The position numbers and the translations under genes were made by a program. The notes under the pieces are model-generated. The model was not told the DNA's origin. It saw nothing but the letters and a program-made list of their open reading frames with translations, and ran no database searches. A DNA stretch of 64,000 nt from a virus (lineage: Duplodnaviria > Caudoviricetes): IMG/VR virus record IMGVR_UViG_2558860984_000001, positions 32,001-96,000 of that record; one strand, 5' to 3'. Positions 36,929-61,564 of the stretch are shown here, in pieces. Within the stretch, counting starts at the first letter, position 1, and each line of letters opens with the position of its first letter.

Positions 36929-37126
36929 CCAACCAATTGGCGACCTAGCCCCCTCGTCGTTCGAGGGGGCGTCGTCCTATCGCAGATCCCTCCACGGCTG
37001 TCGGGCACTCGGCCGCCTTGGAGGTGACGCCTCCGCTGCTAAGATCACCAAGAAGTCGCGCGTCAGCGCGGCGCGCGACCGCTGGTGCTAGGCCGGGTCC
37101 CCGCACACACCCCTGCGGGAGCACCT

Positions 37127-37375
37127 GTGCCCTCCCCGTCGCCCCTCACCCCCCACGCCCGCCCCGAACGGGAACGCGCCCGCGCCCGCCTCGCCGGCCT
37201 CGTCCGCCACCGGCCCCCGGACGACCCGGACATCGACCGGGCGCGCCGTGACCTCGCCGCCGCCCGCGTGCAGGGCCTCCTTCAGGCGGCGCTGGCCGAA
37301 CTCGCCCTCGTCACCGGCAACCCGGGCGCCAGCGACGGCGACACCGTCAAGGGGGCCGACCATGGGGCTCGTTGA
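37127..37375 (+). CDS. small phage protein
   Basis: GGGAG RBS, GTG start; RARLAGLVRHRPPDDPDIDRARRDL. Confidence 0.6.
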   Translation: MPSPSPLTPHARPERERARARLAGLVRHRPPDDPDIDRARRDLAAARVQGLLQAALAELALVTGNPGASDGDTVKGADHGAR

Positions 37376-37703
37376 GGTCCTCGTCCTCGGTCTGGCCGCG
37401 TACCGCGGAACCCAGCTCGCCGTGCACGACACCGTGCTCGACCCCGCACGGGACCGCGTGTTCGCCTGGCAGGCCCGCCGGCCGGAGTCCCGCCCACGCC
37501 AGTGGGTCATCACGCTGATCTCGTGCACGTACTGCATGGGCTGGTGGGTCGCCGGCGCCGCGCTCGGCATCTACGTCCTGGCCGCCGACACCTGGCCCGG
37601 CGTCCCGGAGTTCGCGCTGTACTGGTTCGCCGTCGCCGGCGTACAGGCGCTCCTCAACCGCTGGGACGACACCCGGCCCTCGTCTGCAGGGGCCGGGGAA
37701 TGA
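37362..37703 (+). CDS. DUF1360-like membrane protein
   Basis: LAAYRGTQL..HD.VLDP.R...LISCTYCMGWW. Confidence 0.85.
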   Translation: MGLVEVLVLGLAAYRGTQLAVHDTVLDPARDRVFAWQARRPESRPRQWVITLISCTYCMGWWVAGAALGIYVLAADTWPGVPEFALYWFAVAGVQALLNRWDDTRPSSAGAGE

Positions 37704-39160
37704 AGCTCACCCGCAGCCGGTCCCTGTCTGCCGCCGCGGCACGGTTCACCACCCGCATCTTCGGCAGCGGCAGCGGCAAGTCCACGGCACCAGACCAGTC
37801 GTGGCAGAAACGCGCCTGGGACATGTACAAGACGACGCCTGAGGTCAGGTTCGTCGCGACCTGGACCGGGAACGCCATGTCCCACCTCCGGCTGACCGCT
37901 GGCCTGATCCAGCCCGACGGCAGCATCGAGGAGGCGCCCGAAGGCTCCCGCGCCGCCGAACTCGTTGCCTCGATTGCCGGAGGCCCCGAAGGCCAGTCTG
38001 AACTCATGGCCGCCTTCGGCAGGCACCTGACGGTCGCCGGAGAAGGCTGGACCGTTATCCGCCCCGCTGACACCAGCGAGGCGGGCGCCGTGCCAGGAGG
38101 GATGCAGGGGGAAGAGTGGCACGTGCTGTCCACCTCTGAGGTGCAGCACAGACGCGGCAAACTCACAGCGGAGATCAACGGCGACGAAGTTGACATTCCC
38201 GCCGCCGACCCAGATACCCCACCCACGCCGGACACCCCACTCGCGATCCGCGTATGGACACCGTCCCCCGAGCGCCACATCGAGGCCGACTCCCCGATGC
38301 GGTCGTGCCTAGAGCTGCTGGAGGAACTGCGACTCCTCCACGCCGCAGTCAAGGCCATCATCCGCAGCAGGATCACCGGCCGCGGCGTCCTTATGATCCC
38401 CAAAGGCGCCCGATTCCCGACCACCCCCGGCCAAGGCGACGCAGAAGACAGCCTGATCGACGTGTTTATGGAAGTCGCCGAAACCGCCATCAGAGAGCCG
38501 GAATCCGCCGCAGCGACCGTCCCGATCATCCTGGAAATGCCGCAGGACGCTATCGATGGCCTGAAGTGGCAAACATTCGAGTCCGCCTTCGACGAACTCG
38601 CCATCCGGTTGCGTGAGGAGGCCATCCGTCGCTACGCCCTCGGGCAGGACATCCCACCTGAGGTACTGCTAGGCATGGGCGCCTCCGTCAATCACTGGAA
38701 CGTGTGGGCGCTGAGCGAGGAAGCCGTTCGTCTCGGAGTCCTCCCCAAAGGCAAAACCGTCGCCCACGCCTTCACCACCCAATGGCTGCGCCCCATGCTC
38801 GCCGCCGAAGGCGACCCTGAGGCACACACGTGGGTGGTGCAGGTCGACTCCAGCACTCTCCGCGTCCGCGCCAACCGCGCCCAGACCGCCCTCGACGTCT
38901 ACGACCGCGGCGGCATCAGCGCCACCGCCCTCCGCCGAGAGACCGGATTCGACGAAGCCGACGCGCCCACACCGGAAGAGTCCGCTGCCCGCCGACCCAC
39001 GGCCAGCACAGCCACACCGCCGCGGCTACCCGTAGACGAGACCGGCGCCGAACCTGCCACCCAACCCGACTCGGGTCAGCCCCCACCGGCCGAGCGCACC
39101 ACCAGCACGGCCCCCACCACCCAGCCCACCGCGGAGACCAGGCCGGAGGAACCTCGATGA
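37700..39160 (+). CDS. portal protein
   Basis: Position between TerL and MuF; WQKRAWDMY...HLTVAGEGW...PPEVLLG...NHWNVW as in actinophage portals. Confidence 0.85.
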   Translation: MKLTRSRSLSAAAARFTTRIFGSGSGKSTAPDQSWQKRAWDMYKTTPEVRFVATWTGNAMSHLRLTAGLIQPDGSIEEAPEGSRAAELVASIAGGPEGQSELMAAFGRHLTVAGEGWTVIRPADTSEAGAVPGGMQGEEWHVLSTSEVQHRRGKLTAEINGDEVDIPAADPDTPPTPDTPLAIRVWTPSPERHIEADSPMRSCLELLEELRLLHAAVKAIIRSRITGRGVLMIPKGARFPTTPGQGDAEDSLIDVFMEVAETAIREPESAAATVPIILEMPQDAIDGLKWQTFESAFDELAIRLREEAIRRYALGQDIPPEVLLGMGASVNHWNVWALSEEAVRLGVLPKGKTVAHAFTTQWLRPMLAAEGDPEAHTWVVQVDSSTLRVRANRAQTALDVYDRGGISATALRRETGFDEADAPTPEESAARRPTASTATPPRLPVDETGAEPATQPDSGQPPPAERTTSTAPTTQPTAETRPEEPR

Positions 39161-39564
39161 CCACCCCCACCACGAACCCGGCACGCGCCGCGCTCATAGC
39201 CGCCGCGGACGGCGCGATCTGGGCCGCGCTCACCCAGGCCGGGATCAAGCTCCGCGGCACCGCCCTGTGCCCGCGCAGCCGCCGCGCCCAGGCACGGACC
39301 GTCACCCCCGCCCTCCTCCACACGACGCTGCCCATGACCGCCGAGGCCATCGACCACTACAAGGTCCTCGCCGGGGCCTGGGACCGTATCCCCGAGCTGG
39401 CCGCCCGCCACGGCGTCGACGCCGGATGCCTCACCACCGCCCTCGACTCGTACTGCCGCGAGCTGCTGGCCGCCGGCCAGCCCCACGACGCCGCGTACGT
39501 CCCCCGCATCATCGCCTCCTGCCGCACCCTCCGCGCCCACGACACCGAGACCGCCCATGGCTGA
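39157..39564 (+). CDS. hypothetical protein, portal-associated
   Basis: GGAGG RBS, ATGA coupling. Confidence 0.7.
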   Translation: MTTPTTNPARAALIAAADGAIWAALTQAGIKLRGTALCPRSRRAQARTVTPALLHTTLPMTAEAIDHYKVLAGAWDRIPELAARHGVDAGCLTTALDSYCRELLAAGQPHDAAYVPRIIASCRTLRAHDTETAHG

Positions 39565-39736
39565 CTGCCCGTACTGCTGGGGCGGCCACGGCTGCGATCT
39601 CGACGAACACCATCCCGGCGACCACGAGTGCCGCACCGGGCACGTAGAGCAGGGCGACGAACCTGACACCCGCCCCCGCCGTCACCCCGATGTCTTCCAC
39701 TGCCGCACCGACGAGCCGGAGCATGCCCATGGCTGA
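39557..39736 (+). CDS. 59-aa Cys/His-rich microprotein (not in the ORF track)
   Basis: MADCPYCWGGHGCDLDEHHPGDHECRTGH...; overlaps both neighbours by 8 bp. Confidence 0.55.
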   Translation: MADCPYCWGGHGCDLDEHHPGDHECRTGHVEQGDEPDTRPRRHPDVFHCRTDEPEHAHG

Positions 39737-42700: not shown

Positions 42701-43505
42701 AGCCCCACCCATGCCCGCCGAATGGTTCCGCGAGCCAACCGCGGCCGAGCTTCCGCCTGGCTCCGGTGGTGTCCACGTCGACGGCGGACGCATCTACGGC
42801 TGGGTTGCCCAGGTCGGAGAACCCCACGCCGGAATGCCCGGCCGCAACCTCACCATCGAATCGCTCGGCGACATCGACCTCAGCCACTTCAACCGGGCCC
42901 ACTTCAAGCTCGATGACGGCTCAGTGGTCCGGGCCGGCGCCATGACGATGAATGCCGGCCATCACAACGACGGCGCCACGTGCGAAACCTCCGCCTGTCA
43001 ATTCGACGACACGCGAACGGTCGCAGGAATCGTGCGAGTCGGCCAGAACGACCGCGGCCTGTGGTTCAGCGGTGCAGCAGCTCCGTGGCTGGACACCTGG
43101 GACGACCTGACTTTCCGGGCATGCCAGCCCAGCTACCACATGATCCAGGGCCGTGACGGACGCTGGCAGCTCCGCGCAGTCCTCTCCGTACCCGTCCCCG
43201 GCCACTCCAGCCCGCTGCTGGCCGCGTTCGCCGAGCGCTCCAACCTCGCCCTCACCGCAGCCAGCACCGCGCCCACACCGGATGACTCACCGATCAGCAC
43301 CGCGCAGCGGCGGCAGATCGGCGAGATCACCGCCACTCTGGCGACGATCAACGACCAGATCAGCGGGCTCCGCGACCAGATCGCCGCCCTCAACCAGCCT
43401 CCGGCACCGGCCCCCACCGGCGACCCGGTCCAAGACGAGATCAATGCCCTGGCCGCGCGAGTCGAACTCGCAGCCTCTGCCGCACCGACACGAGAAAGGC
43501 CCTGA
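39729..43505 (+). CDS. MuF-like minor head protein fused to 2H phosphodiesterase and capsid maturation protease regions
   Basis: RIAQTE, KQWLTRND..VR..H, NCRC (MuF); HLT and HVC (2H); TGDGR, GVSVDLD, GATLV..PAF (prohead protease). Confidence 0.85.
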   Translation: MADPLAAAEQDIADAVAAALADTADEYGRALNGATELVAARFSVGRIAGMWARRVPALVRRLLGVAETAAQQTATDVDAELPDGWTDLPARHQDGRRLPDGIGRYATATEALLNAVGDRLADAAVRELAAGLNRDESVDQLRARLLEAFARDGAQLGPGREQRIAQTEAVRAWNTAVLAAARDLTTPDRPLVKQWLTRNDSSVRSAHRAAAGQLRLLDEPFRVAGTSMQAPGDPSAPPALTVNCRCRLAIAPEPRTASLESHAAPSAACSDPRESRVDKTAASSAHTGAMIALAPTVEDAQRLALDSPGAEPAGELHLTLFYLGEASDWDEEHRADLLQRLTDRAQDLLPLTGQAFGANQWNANGDEPCWVWAVGDDRDTDGPGLETTRAAAVNALEDQLRQPQLPAQHSPWQPHVCAAYSRSPALLTAMNERLGPVRFDRLRVAFAGEYTDIPLGPPTQEDPMDNDQHNQPQHLAARRWSTPGDAGLAFENQQTGDGRVFRAGALYWDGAGPWPLQYAEEMLTGHEGAELAGAIELLERDDYRLASNGVLYPGRPAGADALMLLEEGAPLGVSVDLDNVTVEFVDTTGRAVGDPDDEVVLLAAALPSASFLRLADGSWAVTATATAGWTASGQVMSRTAAGAQIITGPDGRIPATAVQAAFGPTGTLTAGAGAPDPEDGIVLHSESAGDLLMRVTRARVRGATLVSVPAFDQARIVLDPQPGTEPVADPQGNDQGRDDEEMTAAAAGTLLRRVVDYVTTAPHPVGARDTGQALDITMTSARGALNRAAAKELIVRLARGLYVGNPSLGEDKTRTAAPVTAPLTAAVSGDLDLPVLPERDAEWDGDKAASRILAWATDEDGNVDADKLSQGFLYRDDTANPATVSAYKLPFADAITRGDTQHLEIIDTAVYTIANVLQGGMGGVDLPDDDREAIRGRVEELYARLAGEFDDDSIAPPWADDKNTSDDQPDDSGEEQASAALVASAWTAMREAPPMPAEWFREPTAAELPPGSGGVHVDGGRIYGWVAQVGEPHAGMPGRNLTIESLGDIDLSHFNRAHFKLDDGSVVRAGAMTMNAGHHNDGATCETSACQFDDTRTVAGIVRVGQNDRGLWFSGAAAPWLDTWDDLTFRACQPSYHMIQGRDGRWQLRAVLSVPVPGHSSPLLAAFAERSNLALTAASTAPTPDDSPISTAQRRQIGEITATLATINDQISGLRDQIAALNQPPAPAPTGDPVQDEINALAARVELAASAAPTRERP

Positions 43506-43507
43506 CC

Positions 43508-43762
43508 ATGGCCTGTGCCTGCAACAAGAACAACCCCAGGTGGGAAGTCGTCACGAGCAGCGGCGCCACCGAGCGGATCGTCTACAGCGCCAGCACTGAG
43601 TCGAGGGCCCGCTCGATCGCCAAGCGCTACCCCGGCAGCACCGTGCGGAGGAACCCGCCCGCCGCGCAGCCGGCTGGGCAGACCACCCAGCCGGCCGCCC
43701 GCACGGCGGCCGGCCGCACTCCTCCGCGGGCCGCGAAAGTCAGCCCCACGACCCACGGCTGA
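43508..43762 (+). CDS. small virion-region protein (MACAC N-terminus)
   Basis: GAAAGG RBS; N-terminal CxC. Confidence 0.7.
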   Translation: MACACNKNNPRWEVVTSSGATERIVYSASTESRARSIAKRYPGSTVRRNPPAAQPAGQTTQPAARTAAGRTPPRAAKVSPTTHG

Positions 43763-43900
43763 CCCCTGGACACCCCCGGGTAGCGGCAGCGTGCGCCACC
43801 TCAGCTCGCTCCCGCCCGGGGACTAAGATCGAACTCCCAACTGAATAACCGCTGGTTCTGGGCCGGGTATCTCTCGTGAACTCCACTGGAGAGCCCACCC

Positions 43901-45613
43901 ATGACGTTCGAAGTCCCCGAGGACATCACCCAGCTCAACGACGACGAACTCGCCCAGGCCCTCGACGGCGCCCGCGAAGCGTTCCACGCGATGTCGACGG
44001 CCCAGGCCGTCACCGCGGACGACCTGACGCAGATGCGTGAACTGGCTACCGTCGTGGAGTCCATCCGCGGCGAGCAGACCGCCCGCCTGGAGGCCGCGCA
44101 GCAAGCCGCCGCCGAGATCGACGCCCTGGCCGCGCAGGTCCGCGGCACCGACCCGGATCCCGACACCGACGCGGCCGACGGCGACGCGGACGAGACCGAC
44201 AGCACCGCAGAGGCCACCGCCTCCGCCGACACCGAGCCCGAGACCGCCCCCGAGCCGGAGACCGCCACCGCCACCGCCTCCGCCGGCGTCGTCAACCCCA
44301 ACGGCGGCGGCACCCTCATGCCCCGGCGCCGCGCCCTGGACCTCTCCGCCGTCCGCCGCGCCCAGCCCCGCGTCCTGCCCCCGGACCCCAACCCGCGCCC
44401 GGAGATCACCGCCAGCGTGGACGTGCCCGGCTACCAGCCCGGCCAGCCGCTGGACATGGAAGGCGTGACCGAGGGCATCATCCGCCGCGCGAACGCCCTC
44501 AAGACCGCCGGCGGGGGCGTGGGCCTGACCGCGAGCTACCGCCTGCCGTTCGACAAGAGCCTGATCGTCAACGACAGCTCGTCGGGTACCGAGGGAACCC
44601 GGTCCGTCATCCTCGCCGCTGACCAGTCCCGCCTGAACGGCGGCAACATCGTCGCGTCCGGCGGCTGGTGCGCGCCCAGTGAAACGGTCTACGACCTCGC
44701 GTCCATCGCCTGCCCCGAAATGCTGTGGGACGCCCCGGAAATCATGCTCGCCCGCGGCGGCCTGCGGTTCTTCCCCATCCCGTCGCTCGACGTCGCGTCC
44801 ATGACGTGGGTCCACACCGAGGCCGACGACATCGCCGGCTCCGAAAAGCCCTGCTTCCGCATCCCGTGCCCGGAACCCGTCGAGGTCAGGTGCGACGCGA
44901 TCGGCGTCTGCCTGGAGTCGGGGATCTTGACCCAGAGGCATTTTCCCGAACTCGTCGCCTGGTACCAGAGCAACATCATGGTCGCCCACGAACTCAGGAT
45001 CAGGCAGCACCTGTTCGAGCAGGCGATCACCCAGGCCACCCCCGTCACCCTCCCGGAGACCTTCGGCGCCCTGTCGGCCGTCTACCACGCCATCGCCATG
45101 CAGGCCGCCGACATGGTCGAGCGCCACGCCCTGTGCGACAGCATCAACATCGAGGTCGTCCTGCCCTGGTGGAGCCGCTCGCTGATGCTTGCCGACCTCG
45201 CCCGCCAGAACGGCCGCGCCCTCGAAGAGGTGTCCGTCGAGCAGCTCGTGGCTCTCTTCGCGTCGCTCGGCGTCGGCATCCAGTGGGCCCGCGGCCTCGG
45301 CCCCGCCGTCCCGACCGATATCGGCGGCCAGACCCCCATCACCTCCTGGCCCGCGCAGATCCAGATGCTCATGTACGTCGCCGGGTCCCTGCAGATCGGT
45401 CGCGGCGGCGAGATCAGCCTCGGCGTCGTACACGACTCGACGAAATTCTCGACGAACGATTACACCGCCCTCTTCTCAGAGGAGTGCGTCGCGCTGATCA
45501 ACAGGGGCCCGGACCTGCGCCTGATCACCTTGCCCGTCTGCCCGAGCGGCGAGACCGGCGCCCAGACCCTCATGCTCTGCGACGCCTCTCCGGGCGAGCA
45601 GTCCCCGTCTTGA
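43901..45613 (+). CDS. major capsid (hexamer) protein
   Basis: N-terminal coiled scaffold-like region; ASGGWCAPSETVYD, ARGG, HDS...NDY..LFSEE typical of actinophage hexamer capsid proteins. Confidence 0.9.
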   Translation: MTFEVPEDITQLNDDELAQALDGAREAFHAMSTAQAVTADDLTQMRELATVVESIRGEQTARLEAAQQAAAEIDALAAQVRGTDPDPDTDAADGDADETDSTAEATASADTEPETAPEPETATATASAGVVNPNGGGTLMPRRRALDLSAVRRAQPRVLPPDPNPRPEITASVDVPGYQPGQPLDMEGVTEGIIRRANALKTAGGGVGLTASYRLPFDKSLIVNDSSSGTEGTRSVILAADQSRLNGGNIVASGGWCAPSETVYDLASIACPEMLWDAPEIMLARGGLRFFPIPSLDVASMTWVHTEADDIAGSEKPCFRIPCPEPVEVRCDAIGVCLESGILTQRHFPELVAWYQSNIMVAHELRIRQHLFEQAITQATPVTLPETFGALSAVYHAIAMQAADMVERHALCDSINIEVVLPWWSRSLMLADLARQNGRALEEVSVEQLVALFASLGVGIQWARGLGPAVPTDIGGQTPITSWPAQIQMLMYVAGSLQIGRGGEISLGVVHDSTKFSTNDYTALFSEECVALINRGPDLRLITLPVCPSGETGAQTLMLCDASPGEQSPS

Positions 45614-45632
45614 CCTCGCCCCTTCCGGAAAC

Positions 45633-45670
45633 GCCGGGCCCTGTCCTCCCCCCCCGGGACAGGGCCCGGC
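45633..45670 (+). terminator. 14-bp stem-loop after the capsid gene
   Basis: GCCGGGCCCTGTCC / GGACAGGGCCCGGC. Confidence 0.65.
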
Positions 45671-45698
45671 ACACCCCACCCGAAGGAGGTGAGGCACC

Positions 45699-47134: not shown

Positions 47135-47137
47135 GCA

Positions 47138-49101: not shown

Positions 49102-49198
49102 CCTCCTGGCAAGAGCATCCCCTGCTTCCCGTCGACCGCTGGCTGTGGGCCGGGTCCCATCCGCACCTCCCCCAGTCGTGGGGCGATAGGAGACCACC

Positions 49199-54366: not shown

Positions 54367-55310
54367 CCGGCCGGCCGCGGATCTTCGCTGTCGCCGGCTG
54401 GCGGTACGAACCTGCGTGGCTCGTCGACGAGCTGCGCGACAACTTGTCGTGGGTCGATGAGTTGGTCATTGTCGACGACCGTGCCCGTACGGACGAGTTG
54501 TGGGTGCATGAGGGGGAGTACCGGCTGATGCAGCGCCGCGCCCTGGAGGCCGCCGGCATCCGCCCGTGGGACCTCGTCCTCGTCACCTCCCCCGACGAGC
54601 GGTGGGGGCGCCGCGCCGGCCGTATCCTCCGCGGTCTGGCCGCCGCCTACCCCCGCCGTAAGAGGATCTATGAGTTCCCGCTGCGGGAGCTGTGGACCCC
54701 GACCCGATACCGAATCGACGGGTTCTGGGGCAACAAGTGGCGCCCCAGAGTGTTTCCCTACCTGTCGCGGCAGGTGTTCACCAGCCGAGCGATCCAGACC
54801 GTTCCCGTGCCGGTCGACCGTGGATACCATCGCGTCCGCGTGCCCAAGGTCCCCATCTATCACCTGGAGAACGTCGCCCCTGCGAGCAGGGCGGAGCGCG
54901 CCATCGTCTACGAAGCCCTCAGCCCGGGGTCGCAGCACCGCGCCGCTCGCTCCCCGTACTGGAAGCGGCACGACCCCACCGGCCGGTACATGCGAGCGTA
55001 TGGCTACGCCTACCTGGCCGACTCCCGCGGCCTGCGCTGTGCCCCCGTCCCGGCCGGTGACATCACCCCGCCTCCGGTCAGGCCCTACGTGTTCCGCGTA
55101 CCTGACGACCTCTTGGAGGCCGCATCCGTGGAGAACGGCGCACCCGCCCGCACGCGCGCAGAGTGGGAGCGCTGGCTACGCTCCACCCTGGCCGGCCCGC
55201 CGGCCACCCGTCCCGCGGCCAGTCCCACGATGCGCGTACGGACTCGCCGCCGTCCCCTTCCGACCGGACAGCCGGTGTACGGCGGCCTGAGCCGCGCGGG
55301 ACCACGATGA
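54363..55310 (+). CDS. glycosyltransferase family 2-like protein
   Basis: VDELVIVDD and VLVTSPDERW (DxD-equivalent), IYHL. Confidence 0.6.
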   Translation: MTGRPRIFAVAGWRYEPAWLVDELRDNLSWVDELVIVDDRARTDELWVHEGEYRLMQRRALEAAGIRPWDLVLVTSPDERWGRRAGRILRGLAAAYPRRKRIYEFPLRELWTPTRYRIDGFWGNKWRPRVFPYLSRQVFTSRAIQTVPVPVDRGYHRVRVPKVPIYHLENVAPASRAERAIVYEALSPGSQHRAARSPYWKRHDPTGRYMRAYGYAYLADSRGLRCAPVPAGDITPPPVRPYVFRVPDDLLEAASVENGAPARTRAEWERWLRSTLAGPPATRPAASPTMRVRTRRRPLPTGQPVYGGLSRAGPR

Positions 55311-55451
55311 AAGCCAGCTGCTCGGCGCCGCGTCCTCGGTAGCACGGCGCGGCTAGACTGGTCCACGAGCTGCTGGCGGTAGGCCGAGCGGAACGCCTCA
55401 CGGCGCCGCTGGTTCTGGGCCGGGCATCCAACGCACCTGTTGGAGGCCCGG

Positions 55452-56153
55452 ATGCCGGCCCCTCTCATCTCCAACGCGGCCACCGTCCGCGTTACCCGCG
55501 TTGATGGCTGCGGGCGCCCTGTCTGTGGTGATGACGCGAGCTTCGTCACCGACTGCTTCGCCAGCGTGCAGATGGAAGCGAACATCGAAGAAGGCGAAGA
55601 TATTTCGTTCATCGCCGCCAACGGCAGGCAGTGCGGATTCAAGAAGGGCTGCCCGTCGCTGAACGGGTACGACCTGACGTTCACCTTCTTCCAGGCAAGC
55701 CCTGAGCTGCTGGAAATCATGACCGGATCGCCGGTGTACTTCGATTACAACGGTGACCCCGTCGGGTTCGACAGCTGCTCCATTTCCTGCCGCACCGGTT
55801 TCGCGCTGGAAGTCTGGGCCGACGTCCTCGGCGAGGACGTGTGCCCGGAAGAAGACATCGGTGAGGGCGCCTGGACCTACTTCCTTCTTCCCTGGGTTAG
55901 CAACGGCATCATCGGCGACCTTGAACTGGCGAACGAGGCAGTGAACTTGGAATTGACGGGCGCCACGCGAGCCGGCGGACGATGGGGCGTCGGTCCCTAC
56001 GACGTCGTCGCCCAGGACGCCTCCGGAACCCCGGGCCCGATGCTCACCCCGCTGGCCTCGAACTGCCACCGCCGTATGATCATCACGACCGTGGCCCCGC
56101 CCGAGCCCAGCACCACGTACGTGCCGGTGCTCTGCGACGCCTCCCTGTCATGA
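55452..56153 (+). CDS. major tail (tube) protein
   Basis: GGAGG RBS; RVTRVDGCG.P...GFALEVW...YFLLPW...WGVGPYDV. Confidence 0.85.
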   Translation: MPAPLISNAATVRVTRVDGCGRPVCGDDASFVTDCFASVQMEANIEEGEDISFIAANGRQCGFKKGCPSLNGYDLTFTFFQASPELLEIMTGSPVYFDYNGDPVGFDSCSISCRTGFALEVWADVLGEDVCPEEDIGEGAWTYFLLPWVSNGIIGDLELANEAVNLELTGATRAGGRWGVGPYDVVAQDASGTPGPMLTPLASNCHRRMIITTVAPPEPSTTYVPVLCDASLS

Positions 56154-56992
56154 TGGGGCTGCCTGACATCGTCGTCCCCGTCCGCGAAGGGCCGGCGAAC
56201 CAGCAACTGCGCTACGCGCTACGCAGCTGGGCGGTGCATGTTCCGCATCGGCGGGTGTGGATTGTGGGTCATCGGCCGCCGTGGGTGGCCGACAACGTGG
56301 GCCACATCCCCACCCAGCAGGCCGGGAAGACGAAGTACAAGAACACCACGACCGCAGTGCGTGCGGCCTGTCTGCACCCCGCAGTGTCACAGAGTTTCCT
56401 GCTGTGCAATGACGACTTCTTCATCATGAAGAAGCTCCGCGCGATGCCTGTGCTCCACCGAGGCCCCGTCGCCGAGGTGGAGCGGTACTACGCGGCGCGG
56501 GCGTCGGGCGCCTATCTGCGGGGGATGCGGGAGACACGGGAGCTGCTGGAGTCCCTCGGCGTGAACGAGCCGCTGTCGTACGAGCTTCACGTTCCCCTGC
56601 CGGTCGACAAGACGGGCATGCTCGCTGCACTGGACAGGGCCCGGCACCTGGACGTCGTGCACAAGCGCACCCTCTACGGCAACCTCGCCGGCCTGAGCGG
56701 GCGCCGCATCCGGGACGTGAAGATCATGAACCGCGGCGGCAACTTCGCCCGCGATGGTGCGTTCCTGTCGACGATGCTCGACTCCTTCGCCCACGGCCTG
56801 GTGGGTGCGCACATCCGCAGGTCGTTCCCGCGGCCGGGCCCGTACGAGAAGCCCGGAGTCCGCGTACCCGCCGCCGCGGCCCGCCCTGCGCGTGCAGCCG
56901 GGCCGGGCCGGGCCGGTGCGCCGCGCTCGAAAGCGGCTGGCGGCGGGGTCCGCCGCCCCGCACCCCGCGTCCCGCCCCCCAGGGGCGGCTGA
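56150..56992 (+). CDS. Stealth-family-like sugar-phosphotransferase
   Basis: DIVV, QLRYALRS, VWIVG..P.W, SQSFLLCNDDFF, HVPLP correspond to Stealth CR1-CR3. Confidence 0.7.
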   Translation: MMGLPDIVVPVREGPANQQLRYALRSWAVHVPHRRVWIVGHRPPWVADNVGHIPTQQAGKTKYKNTTTAVRAACLHPAVSQSFLLCNDDFFIMKKLRAMPVLHRGPVAEVERYYAARASGAYLRGMRETRELLESLGVNEPLSYELHVPLPVDKTGMLAALDRARHLDVVHKRTLYGNLAGLSGRRIRDVKIMNRGGNFARDGAFLSTMLDSFAHGLVGAHIRRSFPRPGPYEKPGVRVPAAAARPARAAGPGRAGAPRSKAAGGGVRRPAPRVPPPRGG

Positions 56993-57807
56993 TGCCGCTG
57001 AGTCCGGCGCCGTGTGAGCCGTGGCCGTTCGATCCGTCGTGCTGCGACGTTCCCGATGGTGTCAAGCAGAGCGACATCGACCGATGGCGGCAAGTGGCCA
57101 CCAGCATCCTGTTCTTCCTGTCCGGTCGACGCTGGGGGCCGTCGTGCCCCCTGACGGTTCGCCCGTGCGGACGGTCGTGCATCGAGGCGCTGCTGCCGCT
57201 GACGCCCTCGGGCTACAGAGGGCCACAGACCGGGGGGCGCGTCCCGTACCTGCACGATGGGGCGTGGTTCAACGCCGTGTGCGGCTGCACCACGGACTGC
57301 TCCTGCACACAGCTGTGCAGCCTGCGCTTGGTCGGCCCGGTACACGACGTCGTCGAGGTCCTGGTCGACGGAGTCGTGTTGCCGCCGGAGGCATACCGGG
57401 TGGACTCGGCGAACATGCTGATCCGGCTGGACGGCGAATGCTGGGACGCCTGTCAAGATCTTCAGGCTCCGCCGACGGAGCCGGGCACGGCAGCGGTGAC
57501 ATACCGGGTGGGGCTACCGCTTGACGCCGCGGCCATCGCGGCTGTCTCCGAGCTGACCTGTCACCTGCTGAAGGGGTGCAACGGCGGCTCATGCGGCTGC
57601 GGCGTCTCCCGGCAAAACGTGTCCCGGGTACAGCGGCAGGGCGTGACCCTAGAGATGGCCGACATTGGCCTTCTGTACCGGGAAGGGAGGACGGGGTTGC
57701 CGGTCACGGATATGTGGCTGGCGGCCGTGAACCCCTACGGGCAGCACAGCCCTTCAACCGTCCGGAGCGTGGATCACCGACGTCCTCGCCAGCAAACCTG
57801 GCCCTGA
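56992..57807 (+). CDS. head-to-tail adaptor
   Basis: LSGRRWG..C..TVRPC, RQGVT, TGLP..D.WLAAVNP. Confidence 0.8.
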   Translation: MPLSPAPCEPWPFDPSCCDVPDGVKQSDIDRWRQVATSILFFLSGRRWGPSCPLTVRPCGRSCIEALLPLTPSGYRGPQTGGRVPYLHDGAWFNAVCGCTTDCSCTQLCSLRLVGPVHDVVEVLVDGVVLPPEAYRVDSANMLIRLDGECWDACQDLQAPPTEPGTAAVTYRVGLPLDAAAIAAVSELTCHLLKGCNGGSCGCGVSRQNVSRVQRQGVTLEMADIGLLYREGRTGLPVTDMWLAAVNPYGQHSPSTVRSVDHRRPRQQTWP

Positions 57808-57818
57808 GAGCGAGACCG

Positions 57819-58415
57819 ATGATGCCGCTATCACCGTTGTCCGTGCACGACCTCACCGAGGCCGTTCTTGCGTGCGTGTGCGCCCACCTGGAGGAGACCG
57901 CCGCGCAGACCGAGGGACAGCCCGGCTGCCCCTGCCGTACGTGCGTCGTGCCCGGCGCTGTCGCCTTCGACTCGTGCGAAGACCCGTGCAGCGGTGAAGC
58001 CGGCGGCCAACTCACCGTCAGCCTCGCCCGCCTCTACCCGGCGTCGCCAAGCGACTTCCCCGCCGAGGACCGCACGGTGCGCGGGCTGCGAGGCTGTCCC
58101 GGCATCTCACTGAACGCAGCTGAACTCATCGTCACGCTGCTGCGCTGCGCTCCGATCGGTGACGACAACGGCTGCCCACCAACGTGCGAGGAACTGGCCG
58201 CCGCCGCCCGCGTCATGCACATCGATGCCGTGACCGTGCAGACGGCGCTGCTGTGCTGCTTTCCGGCTACTGCGCCATCTCGCCGAGGGCGCCGCTTCGT
58301 CCTCGGGCCCCAGCGCACCATCGGCCCCCAGGGCGGCTGCGTCGGGGTCGAGCAGCGGGTGACGATCGCGCTGCCCGGTTGCGCTTCGTGCCCTGGGGAG
58401 GACAGCCCGAGTTGA
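57819..58415 (+). CDS. tail terminator-like protein
   Basis: Cys-rich; LRCAP, GPQGGCVG; position after adaptor. Confidence 0.7.
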   Translation: MMPLSPLSVHDLTEAVLACVCAHLEETAAQTEGQPGCPCRTCVVPGAVAFDSCEDPCSGEAGGQLTVSLARLYPASPSDFPAEDRTVRGLRGCPGISLNAAELIVTLLRCAPIGDDNGCPPTCEELAAAARVMHIDAVTVQTALLCCFPATAPSRRGRRFVLGPQRTIGPQGGCVGVEQRVTIALPGCASCPGEDSPS

Positions 58416-58494
58416 CAGGCGCGCCGCTGCCAACATGCTCCCCCGGCCCGATCCCGGGCGGGGCCCGCACACGCCAGGGAAGGAGGGAAGCAAG

Positions 58495-58563
58495 ATGATC
58501 GTTCTGAACGAGGTGCTGACCAACGTGCTCCAGTACGCCGTGATCTTCGTCGACGTCCTGTAA
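58495..58563 (+). CDS. 22-aa hydrophobic peptide
   Basis: AAGGAGG RBS; MIVLNEVLTNVLQYAVIFVDVL*; followed by hairpin 58572-58602. Confidence 0.45.
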   Translation: MIVLNEVLTNVLQYAVIFVDVL

Positions 58564-58619
58564 GGGCGCCGGGCCCCGCGGCCGCGGCCGGGCTGCGGGG
58601 CCACCGACGCGCAGGCGTC

Positions 58620-58856
58620 TCAGAACAAGGCTGGCTCGGCGCCGTGGGGCGTGAGGTCGAGGAGGAGCTGCAGCGCGCTGGGCAGCGGACTGAGGGGAAC
58701 GGTATCCAGACTCCCAGGGCAGGAGACGAGGGAACCCATGAAGGAGCGGTGCATGCCGGGCTCGTCGTGGCGGCGTAGCCGGACCCGGCCTGTGGTGACC
58801 GGATCGCCGGCTATCGGGCGCCCGCAGCGCGGGCATTGGGCACGTGGTAGGCGCAT
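58620..58856 (-). CDS. small zinc-ribbon hypothetical protein
   Basis: CPRCGR...RRH...CPGS. Confidence 0.6.
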   Translation of the reverse strand: MRLPRAQCPRCGRPIAGDPVTTGRVRLRRHDEPGMHRSFMGSLVSCPGSLDTVPLSPLPSALQLLLDLTPHGAEPALF

Positions 58857-58922
58857 GGGCAGGATTTTGCCCGCTATGGTCTGATCAACTCAGGTGGTTT
58901 GTCCTGCCGCGAGGAGGCTGTG

Positions 58923-59276
58923 ATGTCGGTTCGGGTGAGCATCGACCGCGCGGCGCTCCGCCGCGCTGTGGCCGGCCGTGGCGGCTACCTGGAGAACGTC
59001 ACCGACCGGGCGGCGCGCAACGCCCGCCAGCTGGCGCCGGGCTCCATGCCGAGCCAGATCACCTCACGGGTCGAGGGCGAGACGGGCATCGTCACGAGCC
59101 ACCACCCGGCCAGCACCTTCGTCGTGTTCGGGACCCGGCCGCACCGGATCGTGGCGCGGCGTGCCAAGGCGCTGCGGTTCGAGGTCGGCGGGCGGACGGT
59201 GTTCGCGAAGTCCGTCAACCACCCCGGGACGCGGCCGAACAACTTCCTCATGGAAGCGGCTCGTGCGGCCCTGTGA
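58923..59276 (+). CDS. tail-completion / neck protein (HK97 gp10-like)
   Basis: GAGGAGG RBS; FGTRPH.I...KALRF...VNHPGTRPNNFL. Confidence 0.8.
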   Translation: MSVRVSIDRAALRRAVAGRGGYLENVTDRAARNARQLAPGSMPSQITSRVEGETGIVTSHHPASTFVVFGTRPHRIVARRAKALRFEVGGRTVFAKSVNHPGTRPNNFLMEAARAAL

Positions 59277-59438
59277 TCGGGAAATCTCGGCTCGCTCCCC
59301 GGACTTCGGGTAGCGTGCTGGTATCCGCCTTGGGCGATGCCCGGCGGTTCTCTACGCTGATGGCCGCGGGCCTGGCGATGAGACTTCTTGGTCGCGTGTG
59401 CCGACCGACGCGAAGCTAGCCAGAGAGGTCCGTCCCCC

Positions 59439-59999
59439 ATGCGTAAGATCCCGACGCTGTTCGTCCGTGACCCCGATGACCTTCGCCGTGTGCTGCCGGA
59501 GGCCACGCCAGGGTGCGAATGGGTCCTCGCTGGCGAGGGCGTCCCAACCCGCAAGTACGACGGGACGTGCGTGATGCTCGACGCCTCGGGAGAGTGGTGG
59601 GCGCGCCGCGAGGTCAAGCCCGGGAAGGCCGCGCCGGACCGCTTCGTCCAGGTCGACCACGATCCGGTCACGGGTAAGTCGGTGGGCTGGGAGCCGATCA
59701 GCCAGTCGGCCTTCGCGAAGTTCCACGCCGAGGCGGTCGCCGACGTTTCGGCTGTGTTCGAGCCCGGCACCTACGAGCTGATTGGCCCGAAGATCAACGG
59801 GAATCCGGAGGGTGAAGGGCACCACCGGCTCCGGCCGCATGCGTCCGCGCAGCGCCTGGAGGTCGCGGAGCGTTCCTTCGACGGCATCCGGGAGGCCGTG
59901 CTGACGCTGCGGGCGGTCGACGGTGCGGAGGGTGTGGTGTTCCACCACCCTGACGGGCGCATGGCGAAGATCAAGGCGCGCGACTTCCGCGTGCTCTGA
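59439..59999 (+). CDS. ATP-dependent RNA ligase-like protein (DUF5565/Rlig1-like)
   Basis: TRKYDGT (motif I), TYELIGPKINGNP, EGVVF, MAKIK. Confidence 0.8.
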   Translation: MRKIPTLFVRDPDDLRRVLPEATPGCEWVLAGEGVPTRKYDGTCVMLDASGEWWARREVKPGKAAPDRFVQVDHDPVTGKSVGWEPISQSAFAKFHAEAVADVSAVFEPGTYELIGPKINGNPEGEGHHRLRPHASAQRLEVAERSFDGIREAVLTLRAVDGAEGVVFHHPDGRMAKIKARDFRVL

Positions 60000-60118
60000 C
60001 TCCCGACCCTCCGGGTCAGGCAACAGAGGTCCTTCGCTGCTGGTCACGGGCCGGGCGGAGGGCCTTCTGCTGCTCGGCTCGGGCTCGTCTGTCCTCTTCG
60101 TCGAGCAGGATGTGCCGC

Positions 60119-60545
60119 ATGGCGCGCCCCACTGGAACCGCCGATGTCGTTCCGCTGTCCCGGTTCACGTGGCGGACCCAAGCCGTCCTCGACGTGCTCC
60201 TCGACGGGGTGTGACCCAGCGCGGGAGGTGTGGCCGGGGCTGGTGGACCGGTACTGGCGAAGGCAGTTGGTCAGCGGTCCGATCCTCAAGCGGCTGGCCC
60301 GATTGGGCTGACTGGAGATCCGCCGGGAGCCGGACGGGGACGACGGCGCGCCGGGACGGCTGCTGTACCGGCTCACGGCCGGTGGCGAGCGGCTGGCGCG
60401 TGAGGCGGCCGGGCAGGCGGTGGTGTGGCCGGCTCGGGTGGACCGTGGATGTCCAGATACAGAGCCGCTGTATCTAGAGACCGTCGAGTATCCGCGCGGG
60501 CTGATCACGTATGTGCTTGCCGTCGCCCTGGACGAGCGGGCTTGA
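60119..60545 (+). pseudogene. PadR-like regulator pseudogene
   Basis: TQAVLDVLL / DPAREVW...PILKRLARLG*LEIRRE...GRLLYRLTAGG; frameshift near 60210 and in-frame TGA at 60309. Confidence 0.6.
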
Positions 60546-60798
60546 GCCAATGAAGTTGGTGCGCCAGCTGCTGCCGCCGGATCGCCTGTTCCCTGCGGCC
60601 GGGCCGGAGGCTGCAGCCTTGGCGCTGCGGATGCTCGGTGCGCGGCCGGGTAGCGGCGTGGAGGAGACGGTCACCGCCCTGTTCGACGGCAGCTGACCGC
60701 AGCCGGTGCGCCGTACGGCCGCGCTGAGAGCTGGCTACTCTGGTTGGTGACGTTGCTGGTGCTAGGCCGGACGTGGCCGCCCTCGCCAGGAGCACCTG

Positions 60799-61230
60799 AT
60801 GCGTCGTTCCTTCGCCCTCGCCACCGAGCCGCACACCGCCGACATCGGCGGCACCGAACTGGAGTTCCAGCCTGAGATCCCCGCAGACGAGTTCCTCGAC
60901 GCCTACGAACGGGTTCGGGAAGCATCGCAGGCGGCGACAACGCCGGAGTCGGTGACGACCGATCAACTCCGCGACGCCAACCGCGCGGTCCGCGAGTTCC
61001 TGGGCGACCTGATGCTGCCGGAGTCGGCCCAGGTCTTCGCGGAGATGCGGCTGCCCTCGCGCGTCTACGCCGAGCTGCTGGAGTGGGTCCTGGAGCTGTA
61101 CGGCGGCGGGGCGTCGGGGGAGCGCCCTACTGGGTCGTCCAGCGCCTCTGCGCCGCCGTCGCGGAGGGCTGGGACGAGTGGGAGGGGAGCCTCGCCCTCG
61201 AAGGGGTCACCCCGCGGGCGTGGTCGCTGA
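60799..61230 (+). CDS. tail assembly chaperone (short form)
   Basis: AGGAG RBS; before tape measure; EWVLELYG...RPT end. Confidence 0.8.
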   Translation: MRRSFALATEPHTADIGGTELEFQPEIPADEFLDAYERVREASQAATTPESVTTDQLRDANRAVREFLGDLMLPESAQVFAEMRLPSRVYAELLEWVLELYGGGASGERPTGSSSASAPPSRRAGTSGRGASPSKGSPRGRGR

Positions 61231-61463
61231 GGACGCTGCTGTCCGCGGCTGAGCAGGCGATGATGCGGGCTGCGACGGACGACGCCGACCGTGAGCGGCA
61301 GCGCACCCGGTTGTACGCGCCGCCGCACGGCGCCGAACTCCGCGGCCGGCGTGGTGCCCGCCGCGGGGCCGGAGGGATCCCGGGTGGGGTGAGTCACGGC
61401 CAGGCGCAGGCGCTCATCGCGCAGCTGGCGGCCGAGGACACCCGGTACGGCGGCGGTGTGTAG
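61123..61463 (+). CDS. tail assembly chaperone -1 frameshift extension
   Basis: -1 frame ORF PYWVVQRLC...RLYAPP opens at CGCCCTAC (61123-61130) and ends before the tape measure gene. Confidence 0.65.
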
Positions 61464-61564
61464 AGCTGCTCGGGATGGGTGTGTGCGCCGGATACCCTGA
61501 GTACGACGTACGACGCTGCTGGCGGTAGGCCGGGCCCCGCGAATTTCCGCGAGGCGGTGGGCCG

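What the first reader, a model, noticed from the sequence alone, without database searches (positions are those of the whole stretch)
37077..61535. Eight-copy covarying RNA hairpin marking the late (virion) transcription units
Seen: the motif [stem]-GCU-GGY-(NNYRG loop)-GCC-G-[stem'] occurs at 37077 (GACC/GGUC), 43848 (ACC/GGU), 49134 (GACC/GGUC), 55369 (GCU/AGC), 55405 (GCC/GGC), 60028 (GGUCCUUCGCU/GGCGGAGGGCC), 60750 (ACGUU/GACGU) and 61515 (GCU/GGC). The core is invariant, while the outer stem changes sequence yet keeps pairing, including G-U pairs, which points to RNA structure. All copies are on the sense strand between genes. Six end about 24-42 nt before a start codon (portal operon, major capsid, 1524-aa protein, tail tube, tail chaperone, tape measure), and the tail tube leader has a second copy further upstream. 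Five of these leaders have a TANNNT hexamer upstream (TAAGAT 37040, TAAGAT 43824, TAGACT 55354, TACTCT 60736, TACCCT 61493) with no obvious -35. Inference: a cis-acting element bound by a phage protein, such as a boxB-like antitermination signal or a late translational activator/operator that sets virion protein stoichiometry. I do not recognise it as a named RNA family.
Basis: partly seen in the sequence, partly recalled or inferred. Interest (0 to 1): 0.88.

Follow-up and report, generated by a model that had tools for sequence, protein, structure and literature searches.

The report
Conserved leader RNA hairpin of actinophage late genes
A short, bulged RNA hairpin with a nearly fixed core sits just after a promoter-like hexamer and about 30 bases before the start codons of capsid, tail and lysis genes in a wide family of phages of Streptomyces and related bacteria, and it probably controls how these late messages are translated or kept stable.

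Summary
All eight copies are at the stated coordinates, on the sense strand and between genes. Two more strict copies lie just beyond the window.

The motif is an RNA hairpin (H1): a 3-bp outer stem, a bulged G, a C-G pair, a bulged U, then GGY/GCC closing a 5-nt loop. Over 193 distinct copies, 577 of 579 outer-stem cells pair, with 39 G-U wobbles and no A-C. The inner C-G pair switches to A-U or U-A in four copies.

H1 usually begins 6-10 nt after a GnTAnnCT (-10-like) hexamer and ends about 30 nt before a start codon. In about 70% of leaders a second hairpin (H2) sequesters the Shine-Dalgarno sequence. H2 reuses the 3' strand of H1, so the two helices exclude each other, and both show covariation.

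The element occurs only in late (virion and lysis) regions. I found it in Streptomyces phages (TurkishDelight, cluster BG, phage-plasmids), in Gordonia phage Phlop, and in prophages of Micromonospora, Actinomadura and Rhodococcus. It matches no Rfam family and I found no paper describing it.

My best reading is a factor-stabilised translational and stability switch at the 5' end of late mRNAs. The factor is unknown, and transcription start sites are not mapped.

The parts
37040..37045 (+). -10-like hexamer TAAGAT, 31 nt upstream of copy 1. This is further than usual.
37077..37099 (+). H1 copy 1 (GACC/GGUC outer stem). It leads the small Arg-rich ORF 37127-37375, followed by DUF1360 and the portal gene.
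   Evidence: 33 bits, E 8e-6
37095..37126 (+). H2. This hairpin starts at the last core G, reuses the H1 3' strand, and pairs with the SD region before GTG 37127.
   Evidence: MFE -15.1, z -2.6
43824..43829 (+). -10-like hexamer TAAGAT.
43848..43868 (+). H1 copy 2, in the major capsid protein leader (start 43901).
   Evidence: 32.9 bits
43865..43896 (+). H2 of the capsid leader. CUCUC pairs with the SD GGAGAG.
   Evidence: MFE -15.5, z -3.6
49134..49156 (+). H1 copy 3, in the leader of the 1524-aa protein (phrog_18824, start 49199). No TANNNT lies nearby, and the copy sits 33 nt after the upstream stop.
   Evidence: 34.6 bits
55354..55359 (+). -10-like hexamer TAGACT, 9 nt before copy 4.
55369..55389 (+). 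H1 copy 4, the distal copy of a tandem pair (GCU/AGC stem).
55405..55425 (+). H1 copy 5, the proximal copy in the major tail protein leader (ATG 55452).
   Evidence: 41.4 bits, the best hit
55422..55449 (+). H2 of the tail-tube leader. GGGC/GCCC and CCAAC/GUUGG enclose the SD GGAGG.
59348..59385 (+). Weak H1-like variant (AUGG...GGCCU, so the inner pair is A-U), upstream of the RNA-ligase-like ORF 59388-59999.
   Evidence: (18.9 bits, E 0.034)
60028..60064 (+). Atypical copy 6. The core sits in the loop of an 11-bp stem with three G-U pairs. It lies just after the RNA-ligase-like ORF, and no clear ORF follows for about 450 nt.
   Evidence: (24.3 bits)
60736..60741 (+). -10-like hexamer TACTCT, 8 nt before copy 7.
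60750..60774 (+). H1 copy 7, in the leader of the 143-aa protein at the tail-chaperone position (phrog_12617, start 60799).
   Evidence: 29.9 bits
61493..61498 (+). -10-like hexamer TACCCT.
61515..61535 (+). H1 copy 8, in the tape-measure leader (GTG 61565).
   Evidence: 31 bits
61532..61563 (+). Predicted H2 of the tape-measure leader. It is weak in this phage (z -0.1) but strong in relatives (GGGCGACC/GGUUGCCC).

Best explanation
The motif is a cis-acting RNA module in the 5' leader of late (virion and lysis) mRNAs.

Architecture. Each unit has a sigma-A-type -10 element (GnTAnnCT) with no recognisable -35. Transcription would then start 0-4 nt before hairpin H1. H1 consists of a 3-bp outer stem, a bulged G (sometimes GA or GU), a C-G pair, a bulged U, GGY/GCC, and a 5-nt loop. 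In most leaders a second hairpin, H2, follows. H2 locks the Shine-Dalgarno sequence against an anti-SD, and its base is built from the same four nucleotides (G + GGC) that form the 3' strand of H1.

Energetics. H1 is weak on its own, and thermodynamically H2 wins. In that state the message has a closed ribosome-binding site and a loose 5' end.

Proposed mechanism. A trans-acting factor recognises the invariant core, the bulges and the U-G pair and clamps H1. That removes four G-C pairs from H2, lowering the cost of opening the ribosome-binding site by roughly 9 kcal/mol, and tucks in the 5' end. The message then becomes translatable and more stable. Tandem copies before the tail-tube and tape-measure genes would add binding sites.

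Shown: the hairpin, its strand, its placement, the competing helices, and its distribution.

Inferred: the transcription start, the existence and identity of the factor, and the direction of the effect.
For: RNA hairpin:
- Across 148 distinct copies, pair 10-28 is CG 130 / UA 15 / UG 3 with no mispair. The inner pair is CG 144 / AU 3 / UA 1. No shuffle of 500 reaches the observed covariation score.
- After register correction, 577 of 579 outer-stem cells pair, with 39 G-U wobbles and 0 A-C.

Strand and place:
- Relaxed core pattern: 256 forward against 29 reverse matches in 1.68 Mb.
- Class-restricted core pattern: 223 forward against 3 reverse.
- 27 of 27 and 22 of 22 covariance-model hits are on the late-gene strand.

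Promoter:
- 146 of 202 distinct copies have a TANNNT ending 0-20 nt upstream; 121 of these are at 6-10 nt. The background rate is 0.00068 per nt.
- An unbiased EM search recovers G.TA..CT.

Translation link:
- The start codon lies 27-33 nt after the core in 111 of the 165 copies with a callable start.
- In 100 of 142 leaders, at least 3 of the 4 shared nucleotides pair with bases just before the start codon.
- In 42 tail-tube leaders, H1 is 99.3% paired with 18 double-change cells. H2 is 75.5% paired, all 11 pairs show compensatory changes, and 0 of 500 shuffles match it.
- Columns 23-26 belong to both helices. Where the last core base is U, it is matched by A on both sides (L049 and L052).

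Need for a partner:
- H1 alone is about -3 kcal/mol.
- Forcing H1 costs 9.7 kcal/mol on average.
- The predicted probability of the outer stem forming is 0.01.
- The unpaired probability of the SD region rises from 0.30 to 0.44 when H1 is forced.

Precedent: Mu Com binds a short hairpin next to the translation-inhibition hairpin of mom and melts it (PMC6483171; abstract and passages).
Against: - No transcription start, RNA end or expression data exist for any carrier, and no RNA run was listed.
- No binding factor was found. The only non-structural protein shared by this phage, TurkishDelight and YDN12 is a membrane protein.
- With H1 forced, the SD is still mostly inside the inner part of H2.
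- The tail-chaperone class of leaders (32 of 156) and some others have no H2.
- In this phage several copies lie 16-31 nt from the hexamer, one copy (49134) has no hexamer, and one (60028) has no gene at the usual distance.
- The sequences are related by descent, so the shuffle controls overstate independence.
Confidence: 0.45

Rival explanations
1. Nascent-RNA signal for transcription elongation control. H1 (alone or with H2) would act on RNA polymerase soon after initiation, either through a bound factor (N-boxB or Tat-TAR logic) or directly (HK022 put logic). This would make late transcription resistant to pausing or termination.
For: - H1 sits immediately after the predicted start in most units.
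- The two-hairpin leader of about 55-60 nt resembles the layout of put (recalled, not tested).
- The core is conserved across phages of several host orders, with no shared phage regulator. That fits a partner as conserved as RNA polymerase.
- Bulges and a fixed loop are typical protein or polymerase contact features.
Against: - Each unit already has its own promoter-like hexamer.
- No terminators with U-tracts were found beyond the number expected by chance.
- The tight spacing to start codons and the SD pairing of H2 have no role in antitermination.
- The loop is not GNRA-like, and no boxA-like partner element was seen. No dedicated search for one was made.
Confidence: 0.2
2. Passive 5' stabiliser or RNase processing module. 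The hairpin at or near the 5' end would protect late mRNAs from 5'-end-dependent RNases. Alternatively, the AU-containing hexamer between structures would be a cleavage site that leaves H1 at the new 5' end.
For: - H1 starts 6-10 nt after the hexamer in 121 of 202 copies, so at most about 4 unpaired nucleotides would precede it. That matches the known requirement for 5' stabiliser hairpins (recalled from work on ompA).
- The hexamer is one of the few A/U-containing stretches in 70% GC leaders.
Against: - A stabiliser needs a stable stem, not a fixed sequence. H1 is weak (-3 kcal/mol), has an invariant core, and is predicted to lose to H2.
- Second copies of tandem pairs lie 23-45 nt further in.
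- The hexamer has the T-A-n-n-n-T signature plus a G two bases upstream, which is typical of actinobacterial -10 elements rather than of RNase sites.
Confidence: 0.15
3. A double-stranded DNA site (an operator or a promoter element downstream of the -10) bound by a repressor or activator, as with the oriented stoperators of cluster A mycobacteriophages.
For: - Strict orientation with transcription and an intergenic position next to promoter-like hexamers.
- An invariant core of about 14 bp.
Against: - Within a single genome the flanks differ between copies but stay complementary.
- Wobble pairs are G-U only: 39 against 0 A-C.
- The inner pair changes C-G to A-U or U-A.
- The element also occurs in cluster BG phages. 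The cluster BG relative Geonosis is described as virulent with no lysogeny genes (PMC11536984, passages).
- A DNA site has no reason to keep 27-33 nt from start codons.
Confidence: 0.07

Closest known systems
Phage Mu Com protein and the mom mRNA leader (PMC6483171; abstract and passages read)
   Same: A short hairpin with a sequence-specific core lies directly beside a hairpin that hides the translation start signals. Binding at the first destabilises the second.
   Different: - Mu has one target gene. Here at least 10 late units per genome carry the element.
- No Com-like zinc-finger protein was identified.
- Here the two helices share four nucleotides.
- Here the module sits at the predicted 5' end, next to a promoter.
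Lambda N-boxB/nut and HK022 put antitermination RNAs (recalled)
   Same: Small promoter-proximal RNA hairpins on the sense strand with conserved loops that act in cis on the transcribing complex. put needs no phage protein.
   Different: - boxB is an unbulged 5-bp stem with a GNRA-like pentaloop.
- nut and put occur once per early operon, not before each late gene.
- Neither has a fixed distance to a start codon or pairs with an SD.
Start-Associated Sequences (SAS/ESAS) of cluster K mycobacteriophages (PMC3203893, passages read)
   Same: An oriented, repeated, intergenic motif next to start codons in actinobacteriophages. Its function is unknown, with a suspected role in translation initiation. 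It is absent from the host genome.
   Different: - SAS is the 13-mer GGGATAGGAGCCC, 3-7 bp from the start, and contains the SD.
- SAS lies in the non-structural half of the genome.
- The present element is a hairpin 27-33 nt upstream, in the structural half, and has a different sequence.
Stoperators of cluster A mycobacteriophages (PMC5559632 passages; listing abstract of PMC9283540)
   Same: Asymmetric sites of about 13 bp, many per genome, oriented with transcription and lying between genes.
   Different: Stoperators are DNA sites for the immunity repressor, spread over the whole genome. The present element shows RNA-type covariation, is confined to late genes, and occurs in phages reported as virulent.
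5'-terminal stabiliser hairpins such as that of ompA (recalled)
   Same: [quoted passage not shown]
   Different: Stabilisers are defined by stability and position, not by an invariant bulged core that is conserved across host orders.

Membership tests
Any Rfam family | A covariance-model match at the gathering score, or a low E-value | tested here: not met
   There were 0 matches at gathering score in the 64-kb window. At E<=1 on seven 3-kb stretches around the copies, the only hit was a spurious mir-598 match inside a coding region.
boxB / nut (lambdoid N antitermination) | An unbulged 5-bp stem capped by a GNRA-like pentaloop (feature recalled) | tested here: not met
   The stem has two bulges. 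The loops are UNUGG, UNAGG or GNUAG.
boxB / nut (lambdoid N antitermination) | A linear boxA element beside the hairpin and an arginine-rich N-like protein | not tested
   No dedicated boxA search was made. An Arg-rich 82-aa ORF (37127-37375) exists, but it has a homologue only in plasmid NZ_CP108279.
Com-mom type translational activation | A target hairpin adjacent to a hairpin that occludes the start signals | tested here: met
   H1 abuts or overlaps H2 in 100 of 142 leaders, and both helices covary.
Com-mom type translational activation | A dedicated small RNA-binding activator encoded by the phage | tested here: inconclusive
   No shared non-structural candidate was found. A small conserved CxC protein lies beside the capsid leader, but it is also present in relatives that lack H1.
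Cluster K SAS/ESAS | The 13-mer GGGATAGGAGCCC, 3-7 bp before the start, in non-structural genes | tested here: not met
   The sequence, distance (27-33 nt) and gene class all differ (PMC3203893 passages).
Cluster A stoperators | A duplex DNA site for the immunity repressor, spread genome-wide | tested here: not met
   The covariation is RNA-type, with 39 G-U and 0 A-C. The element is confined to late regions.
Intrinsic terminator | A stable GC-rich stem followed by a U-tract | tested here: not met
   H1 is about -3 kcal/mol and is followed by an SD and a start codon. The scan found no terminators at the copies. Only the 60028 copy has a long stem, and it has no U-tract.
Sigma-A (HrdB) type promoter | A -10 hexamer TAnnnT at a start-compatible distance; a -35 element is optional in actinobacteria | tested here: inconclusive
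   The hexamer G.TA..CT is strongly enriched and well positioned. The E. coli-type two-hexamer scan found nothing at the copies. No start sites are mapped.

The most novel reading that the evidence does not exclude
H1 may be a docking site for a universally conserved host machine (RNA polymerase, the ribosome or an RNase) rather than for a phage protein. If so, it is an RNA part that phages of at least four actinobacterial orders have kept almost letter for letter. It would couple promoter-proximal transcription, 5'-end protection and ribosome-binding-site opening in one module of about 55 nt. That would make it a previously unrecognised class of phage leader riboregulator in high-GC Gram-positive bacteria.
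Probability: 0.25. Interest if true: 0.85.

Novelty: new variant of a known kind. Interest (0 to 1): 0.72.

Why it matters
- **Late-gene control.** Control of late genes in actinobacteriophages is largely unknown. This element gives a concrete and testable handle. It marks the starts of late transcription units in many Streptomyces, Gordonia, Micromonospora, Rhodococcus and Actinomadura phages and prophages, including isolated, culturable phages.
- **RNA biology.** It has enough covariation to define a new RNA family. It also shows two mutually exclusive conserved helices, which is the signature of a switch.
- **Possible new factor.** Finding its partner could reveal a new RNA-binding regulator, or a new way in which phages use host polymerase or ribosomes.
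- **Practical uses.** It could improve annotation of prophages and phage-plasmids, and it could supply compact expression-control parts for Streptomyces engineering.

Tried and rejected
**Expression data.** No RNA holder was listed for window 52500-62400.

**Known families.** Rfam gave nothing at the gathering score or at E<=1.

**Close relatives by DNA.** There was no megablast match among 50,697 phage records. Three Streptomyces plasmids matched, but only over the capsid genes.

**Insulating hairpin before each hexamer.** By eye, many units have a GC-rich inverted repeat just upstream. However, the 50 nt upstream of 145 hexamers fold no better than shuffles (mean z -0.33; 14 of 145 below -2). 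I dropped the idea as a general feature.

**E. coli-type promoter and terminator scan of 43000-62000.** It found 1 promoter-like and 3 terminator-like sites, no more than shuffles give, and none at the copies.

**Phage-encoded partner.**
- tblastn and blastp of this phage's ORFs against TurkishDelight and YDN12 leave only structural proteins, DUF1360 and a membrane protein (phrog_2470) in common.
- The small basic CxC protein before the capsid leader looked promising, but it also occurs in relatives without H1.

**Pairing of H1 with 16S rRNA.** The best duplex sites scatter over the rRNA (positions 17, 223, 281, 471, 1381 and others), with z from -0.1 to -2.5. No specific site is supported.

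**Strict tetramer test for H2 covariation.** It showed only modest enrichment. The alignment-based count is the stronger test.

**IMG/VR scan for CGCTGGYNNNNGGCCGGGC.** I did not analyse these further.

**Earlier findings of this scan.** There were none by sequence.

**Literature.**
- No paper holds the 13-mer core strings in a phage context; 3 unrelated papers matched.
- The cluster BG announcement, the Geonosis paper and the Gordonia phage paper do not mention the element. I searched these by term only and did not read them in full.
- Supplementary files were not opened.

**Rows dropped before counts.**
- Cores with loops outside three classes (UU..G, YG.UA, CU..G, plus the window's UCACG) were excluded as probable coding or chance matches.
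- Four hits with unpaired first and last core bases were excluded.

Full report
**What the window is.** The window is bases 32001-96000 of a 113,569-bp IMG/VR record with 70.7% GC.

The late region runs on the + strand. PHROG matches identify these genes:
- small and large terminase (34287-36490)
- portal (37502-39160)
- a 1271-aa MuF-type head protein
- major capsid protein (43901-45613)
- a 1524-aa protein of unknown function
- major tail protein (true start 55452)
- head-tail adaptor
- a chaperone-position protein (60799)
- tape measure (61565 onward)

The closest DNA relatives are three roughly 100-kb circular Streptomyces plasmids with phage genes. By capsid protein, the closest isolated phages are Streptomyces phage TurkishDelight and the cluster BG phages such as YDN12.

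**Check of the observation.**
- All eight copies are at the stated places with the stated outer stems.
- The loose pattern occurs 13 times against 1.9 expected, and 0 of 100 shuffles reach 13.
- The strict pattern GCTGGYNNYRGGCCG occurs 9 times forward and 0 times reverse in the whole record.
- A covariance model built later finds a tenth good copy at genome 100811-100848. It also finds a weak variant at window 59348-59385 and a doubtful one at window 5665-5703.
- Every copy follows a stop codon.

**It is a conserved element, not a quirk of one genome.**
- The same core lies before the same genes in the three plasmids.
- TurkishDelight has about ten copies, again with tandem pairs before the tail-tube and tape-measure genes. 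YDN12 has two, before the capsid and tail-tube genes.
- Among 80 IMG/VR loci found with the tail-tube protein, nearly every locus with 50% or more identity has several copies.
- Over all these loci plus the record itself (1.68 Mb), the relaxed core occurs 256 times forward and 29 times reverse. After restricting to the recurrent loop classes, the counts are 223 forward and 3 reverse.
- Model hits in the annotated relatives are 27 of 27 on the late-gene strand. None lies in the non-structural half of TurkishDelight.
- In three Streptomyces genomes of about 10 Mb each, 30 of 32 hits fall in prophage or plasmid clusters. One singleton sits beside a transposase remnant and looks genuine. One lies in a coding region with an atypical loop. 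Only 150 first-look candidates per genome were scored, so these counts are rough.

**The structure.** An ungapped alignment of 148 distinct copies (A1) was scored against a structure written down beforehand.
- The three inner pairs of the outer stem, the pair between the first C and the last G of the core, and the GGY/GCC stem are all supported.
- Pair 10-28 is CG 130, UA 15 and UG 3, with no mispair.
- The C-G pair is CG 144, AU 3 and UA 1. The four switched copies lie in normal leader contexts in different loci.
- The closing pair is U-G in 135 copies and C-G in 13.
- Two further outer pairs that I tried are not supported.
- No shuffle of 500 reaches the observed covariation, and slid registers score far lower.
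- 161 copies have a one-base bulge (always G), and 32 have a two-base bulge (GA or GU). Allowing for that, 577 of 579 outer-stem cells pair. There are 39 G-U wobbles and no A-C.
- That asymmetry, together with stems that differ between copies of one genome yet stay complementary, indicates an RNA hairpin on the sense strand. It argues against a duplex DNA site or a cruciform.
- RNAalifold, run without guidance on 42 tail-tube leaders, also returns this hairpin as the consensus.

**Placement.**
- *Upstream.* 146 of 202 distinct copies have a TANNNT ending 0-20 nt before the hairpin, 121 of them at 6-10 nt. The background rate is 0.00068 per base, or about 1.4% per 20 nt. A second cluster at 31-36 nt corresponds to the second members of tandem pairs.
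- *Unbiased check.* An EM motif search on the 32 nt upstream, with no pattern imposed, recovers G.TA..CT (T 0.83, A 0.81, C 0.85, T 0.88, and G 0.73 two bases before). From my knowledge of actinobacterial promoters, this is the signature of a sigma-A -10 region.
- *Consequence.* A start 6-8 nt after the hexamer would put the hairpin 0-4 nt from the 5' end. This is an inference, because no start site has been mapped.
- *Downstream.* 165 of 199 distinct copies have an SD-preceded start codon within 120 nt. In 111 of those 165, the start lies 27-33 nt after the core.
- *Genes served in relatives.* Of 156 leaders: tail tube 56, chaperone-position protein 32, tape measure 23, a 283-aa late protein 16, minor tail proteins 9, capsid 6, the 1524-aa protein 2, one other, and 11 with no homologue in this phage. 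The loci were centred on the tail-tube gene, so the capsid is under-sampled.

**A second, competing helix.**
- In most leaders the stretch between H1 and the start codon forms a hairpin (H2). An anti-SD such as CCUCC, CUCCAA or CUCCUG pairs with the SD. Over 142 leaders the mean MFE is -13.3 kcal/mol and the mean z against shuffles is -2.0.
- In 100 of 142 leaders, the base of H2 uses at least three of the four nucleotides that form the last core G and the 3' strand of H1's outer stem.
- On a MAFFT alignment of 42 tail-tube leaders that was not fitted to any structure, H2 is 75.5% paired. All 11 pairs show compensatory changes, 0 of 500 shuffles match it, and slid registers are much weaker. 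On the same alignment H1 is 99.3% paired.
- Columns 23-26 belong to both helices. In L049 and L052 the last core base is U. It is matched by A in the H1 partner column and also by A in the H2 partner column. The two helices cannot form together, and both are under selection.
- H2 is not universal. The chaperone-class leaders and some others lack it.

**Energetics.**
- H1 alone is about -3 kcal/mol.
- In the full leader the predicted probability of its outer stem is 0.01, while the shared bases pair downstream with probability 0.7.
- Forcing H1 costs 9.7 kcal/mol on average and raises the unpaired probability of the SD region from 0.30 to 0.44.
- A helix that covaries but is predicted to lose must be held by something, or it must form first during transcription.

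**Mechanism proposed.** I read the unit as a late promoter followed by a two-state leader.
- *Off state.* H2 is complete, the ribosome-binding site is closed, and the 5' end is single-stranded.
- *On state.* H1 is clamped by a factor that reads the invariant core, the two bulges and the U-G pair. H2 then loses its four basal G-C pairs, and the 5' end is tucked in.
- *Precedent.* This is the logic described for Mu Com and mom (PMC6483171), applied here to ten or more late units at once. Tandem H1 copies (18 pairs among 219 copies) would add binding sites.
- I put 0.85 on 'sense-strand RNA hairpin in late leaders' and about 0.45 on this particular mechanism.

**Who binds it.** This is not resolved.
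- The proteins shared by this phage, TurkishDelight and YDN12 are the virion proteins, DUF1360 and one membrane protein.
- A small basic protein beginning M-A/G-C-x-C lies just before the capsid leader in all carriers. It is also present in relatives without H1, so it is not a specific candidate.
- The element reaches well beyond Streptomyces. The model finds it, always on the late strand (22 of 22 hits), in prophages of Actinomadura, Rhodococcus, Rhodococcoides, Streptacidiphilus, Micromonospora and Gordonia.
- It also finds four copies in the isolated Gordonia phage Phlop, before the capsid, tail-tube, tape-measure and endolysin genes.
- It is absent from mycobacteriophage Chah, which uses a different repeated leader, and from most metagenomic relatives at 40-45% tail-tube identity.
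- Conservation of the core across host orders, with no shared regulator, makes a host partner or a conserved virion protein at least as likely as a dedicated phage factor.
- Specific pairing with 16S rRNA is not supported.

**Rivals.**
- *Elongation control (N-boxB, Tat-TAR or put logic).* This fits the promoter-proximal place and the cross-order conservation. It does not explain the spacing to start codons or the SD pairing.
- *Passive 5' stabiliser or processing module.* This fits the distance from the hexamer. It does not explain a weak hairpin with an invariant core, or the internal tandem copies.
- *Duplex DNA site.* The wobble asymmetry and the within-genome covariation contradict this.

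**Comparison with what is known.**
- No Rfam family matches.
- No paper in the searched library prints the core in a phage context.
- The cluster BG, Geonosis and Gordonia phage papers do not mention it by any of the terms I searched.
- The nearest described actinophage repeats are the cluster K SAS/ESAS, the cluster A stoperators and the cluster O 17-bp palindromes. They differ in sequence, place, gene class and molecular nature.
- I therefore rate the element a new variant of a known kind: a cis-acting phage leader RNA operator.

**Limits.**
- There are no expression data.
- Energies come from nearest-neighbour models, which handle bulged helices poorly.
- The sequences are related by descent, so shuffle statistics are generous.
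- The copy set was filtered by loop class.
- The loci were centred on one gene.
- Supplementary files of papers were not available.

Noticed in passing
window 31112-31183: A tRNA-Gly (anticodon TCC) lies inside the 5' part of the long ORF call 31043-33334. The PHROG match of that ORF covers only residues 480-761, so the real gene probably starts later.
   Followed up: no
window 59388-59999: An RNA-ligase-like ORF (phrog_14301; Pfam RLIG1 at 32 bits) is inserted among the head-tail joining and tail genes. It is flanked by a weak H1 variant upstream and the atypical long-stem copy downstream. Gordonia phage Phlop also has an 'RNA ligase' in its head module (gp17).
   Followed up: partly
window 43508-43762: A small basic protein starting MACAC lies directly after the MuF-type gene and before the capsid leader. 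Homologues (M-A/G-C-x-C...) are found in Streptomyces, Gordonia and Micromonospora phages and in many metagenomic relatives, with or without the hairpin. Its function is unknown.
   Followed up: partly
L151 (Mycobacterium phage Chah), upstream of 17090, 20254 and 40531: Cluster B1 phage Chah lacks H1. It repeats a different leader before its adaptor, tape-measure and lysin A genes: a hairpin GGCGGGAC...GUCCCGCC, followed by TGACA and a conserved stretch of about 35 nt.
   Followed up: no
window 5665-5703: An H1-like sequence with a six-base loop (19.7 bits, E 0.02) lies on the + strand in the 660-nt gap between divergent early-region ORFs. It may be chance or a diverged copy.
   Followed up: no
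L272 (16S rRNA of a Streptomyces host), 3' end, compared with window 55405-55416: The 5' half of H1 (GCCGCUGGUUCU) resembles, rather than complements, the 3' strand of helix 45 at the end of 16S rRNA (GCGGCUGGAUCA). It is identical at 9 of 12 positions by eye. In both RNAs a CCUCC follows, after 0 nt in the rRNA and about 10 nt in many leaders. This may be coincidence.
   Followed up: partly
L147 (G001 chromosome, about 43 kb from the end): A lone, well-formed H1 copy with an SD and a small ORF sits directly after the 3' end of a transposase-like ORF. It is probably a phage remnant.
   Followed up: partly
window 49199-53773: A 1524-aa protein (phrog_18824, unknown function) lies between the head and tail modules and has its own H1 leader. 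Relatives carry versions of 2049-2139 aa, while TurkishDelight and YDN12 lack it.
   Followed up: no
window 37127-37375: The first ORF after copy 1 encodes an 82-aa Arg/Ala-rich protein. It has a homologue only in plasmid NZ_CP108279, where it also follows an H1 copy. It overlaps the start of the DUF1360 gene.
   Followed up: partly
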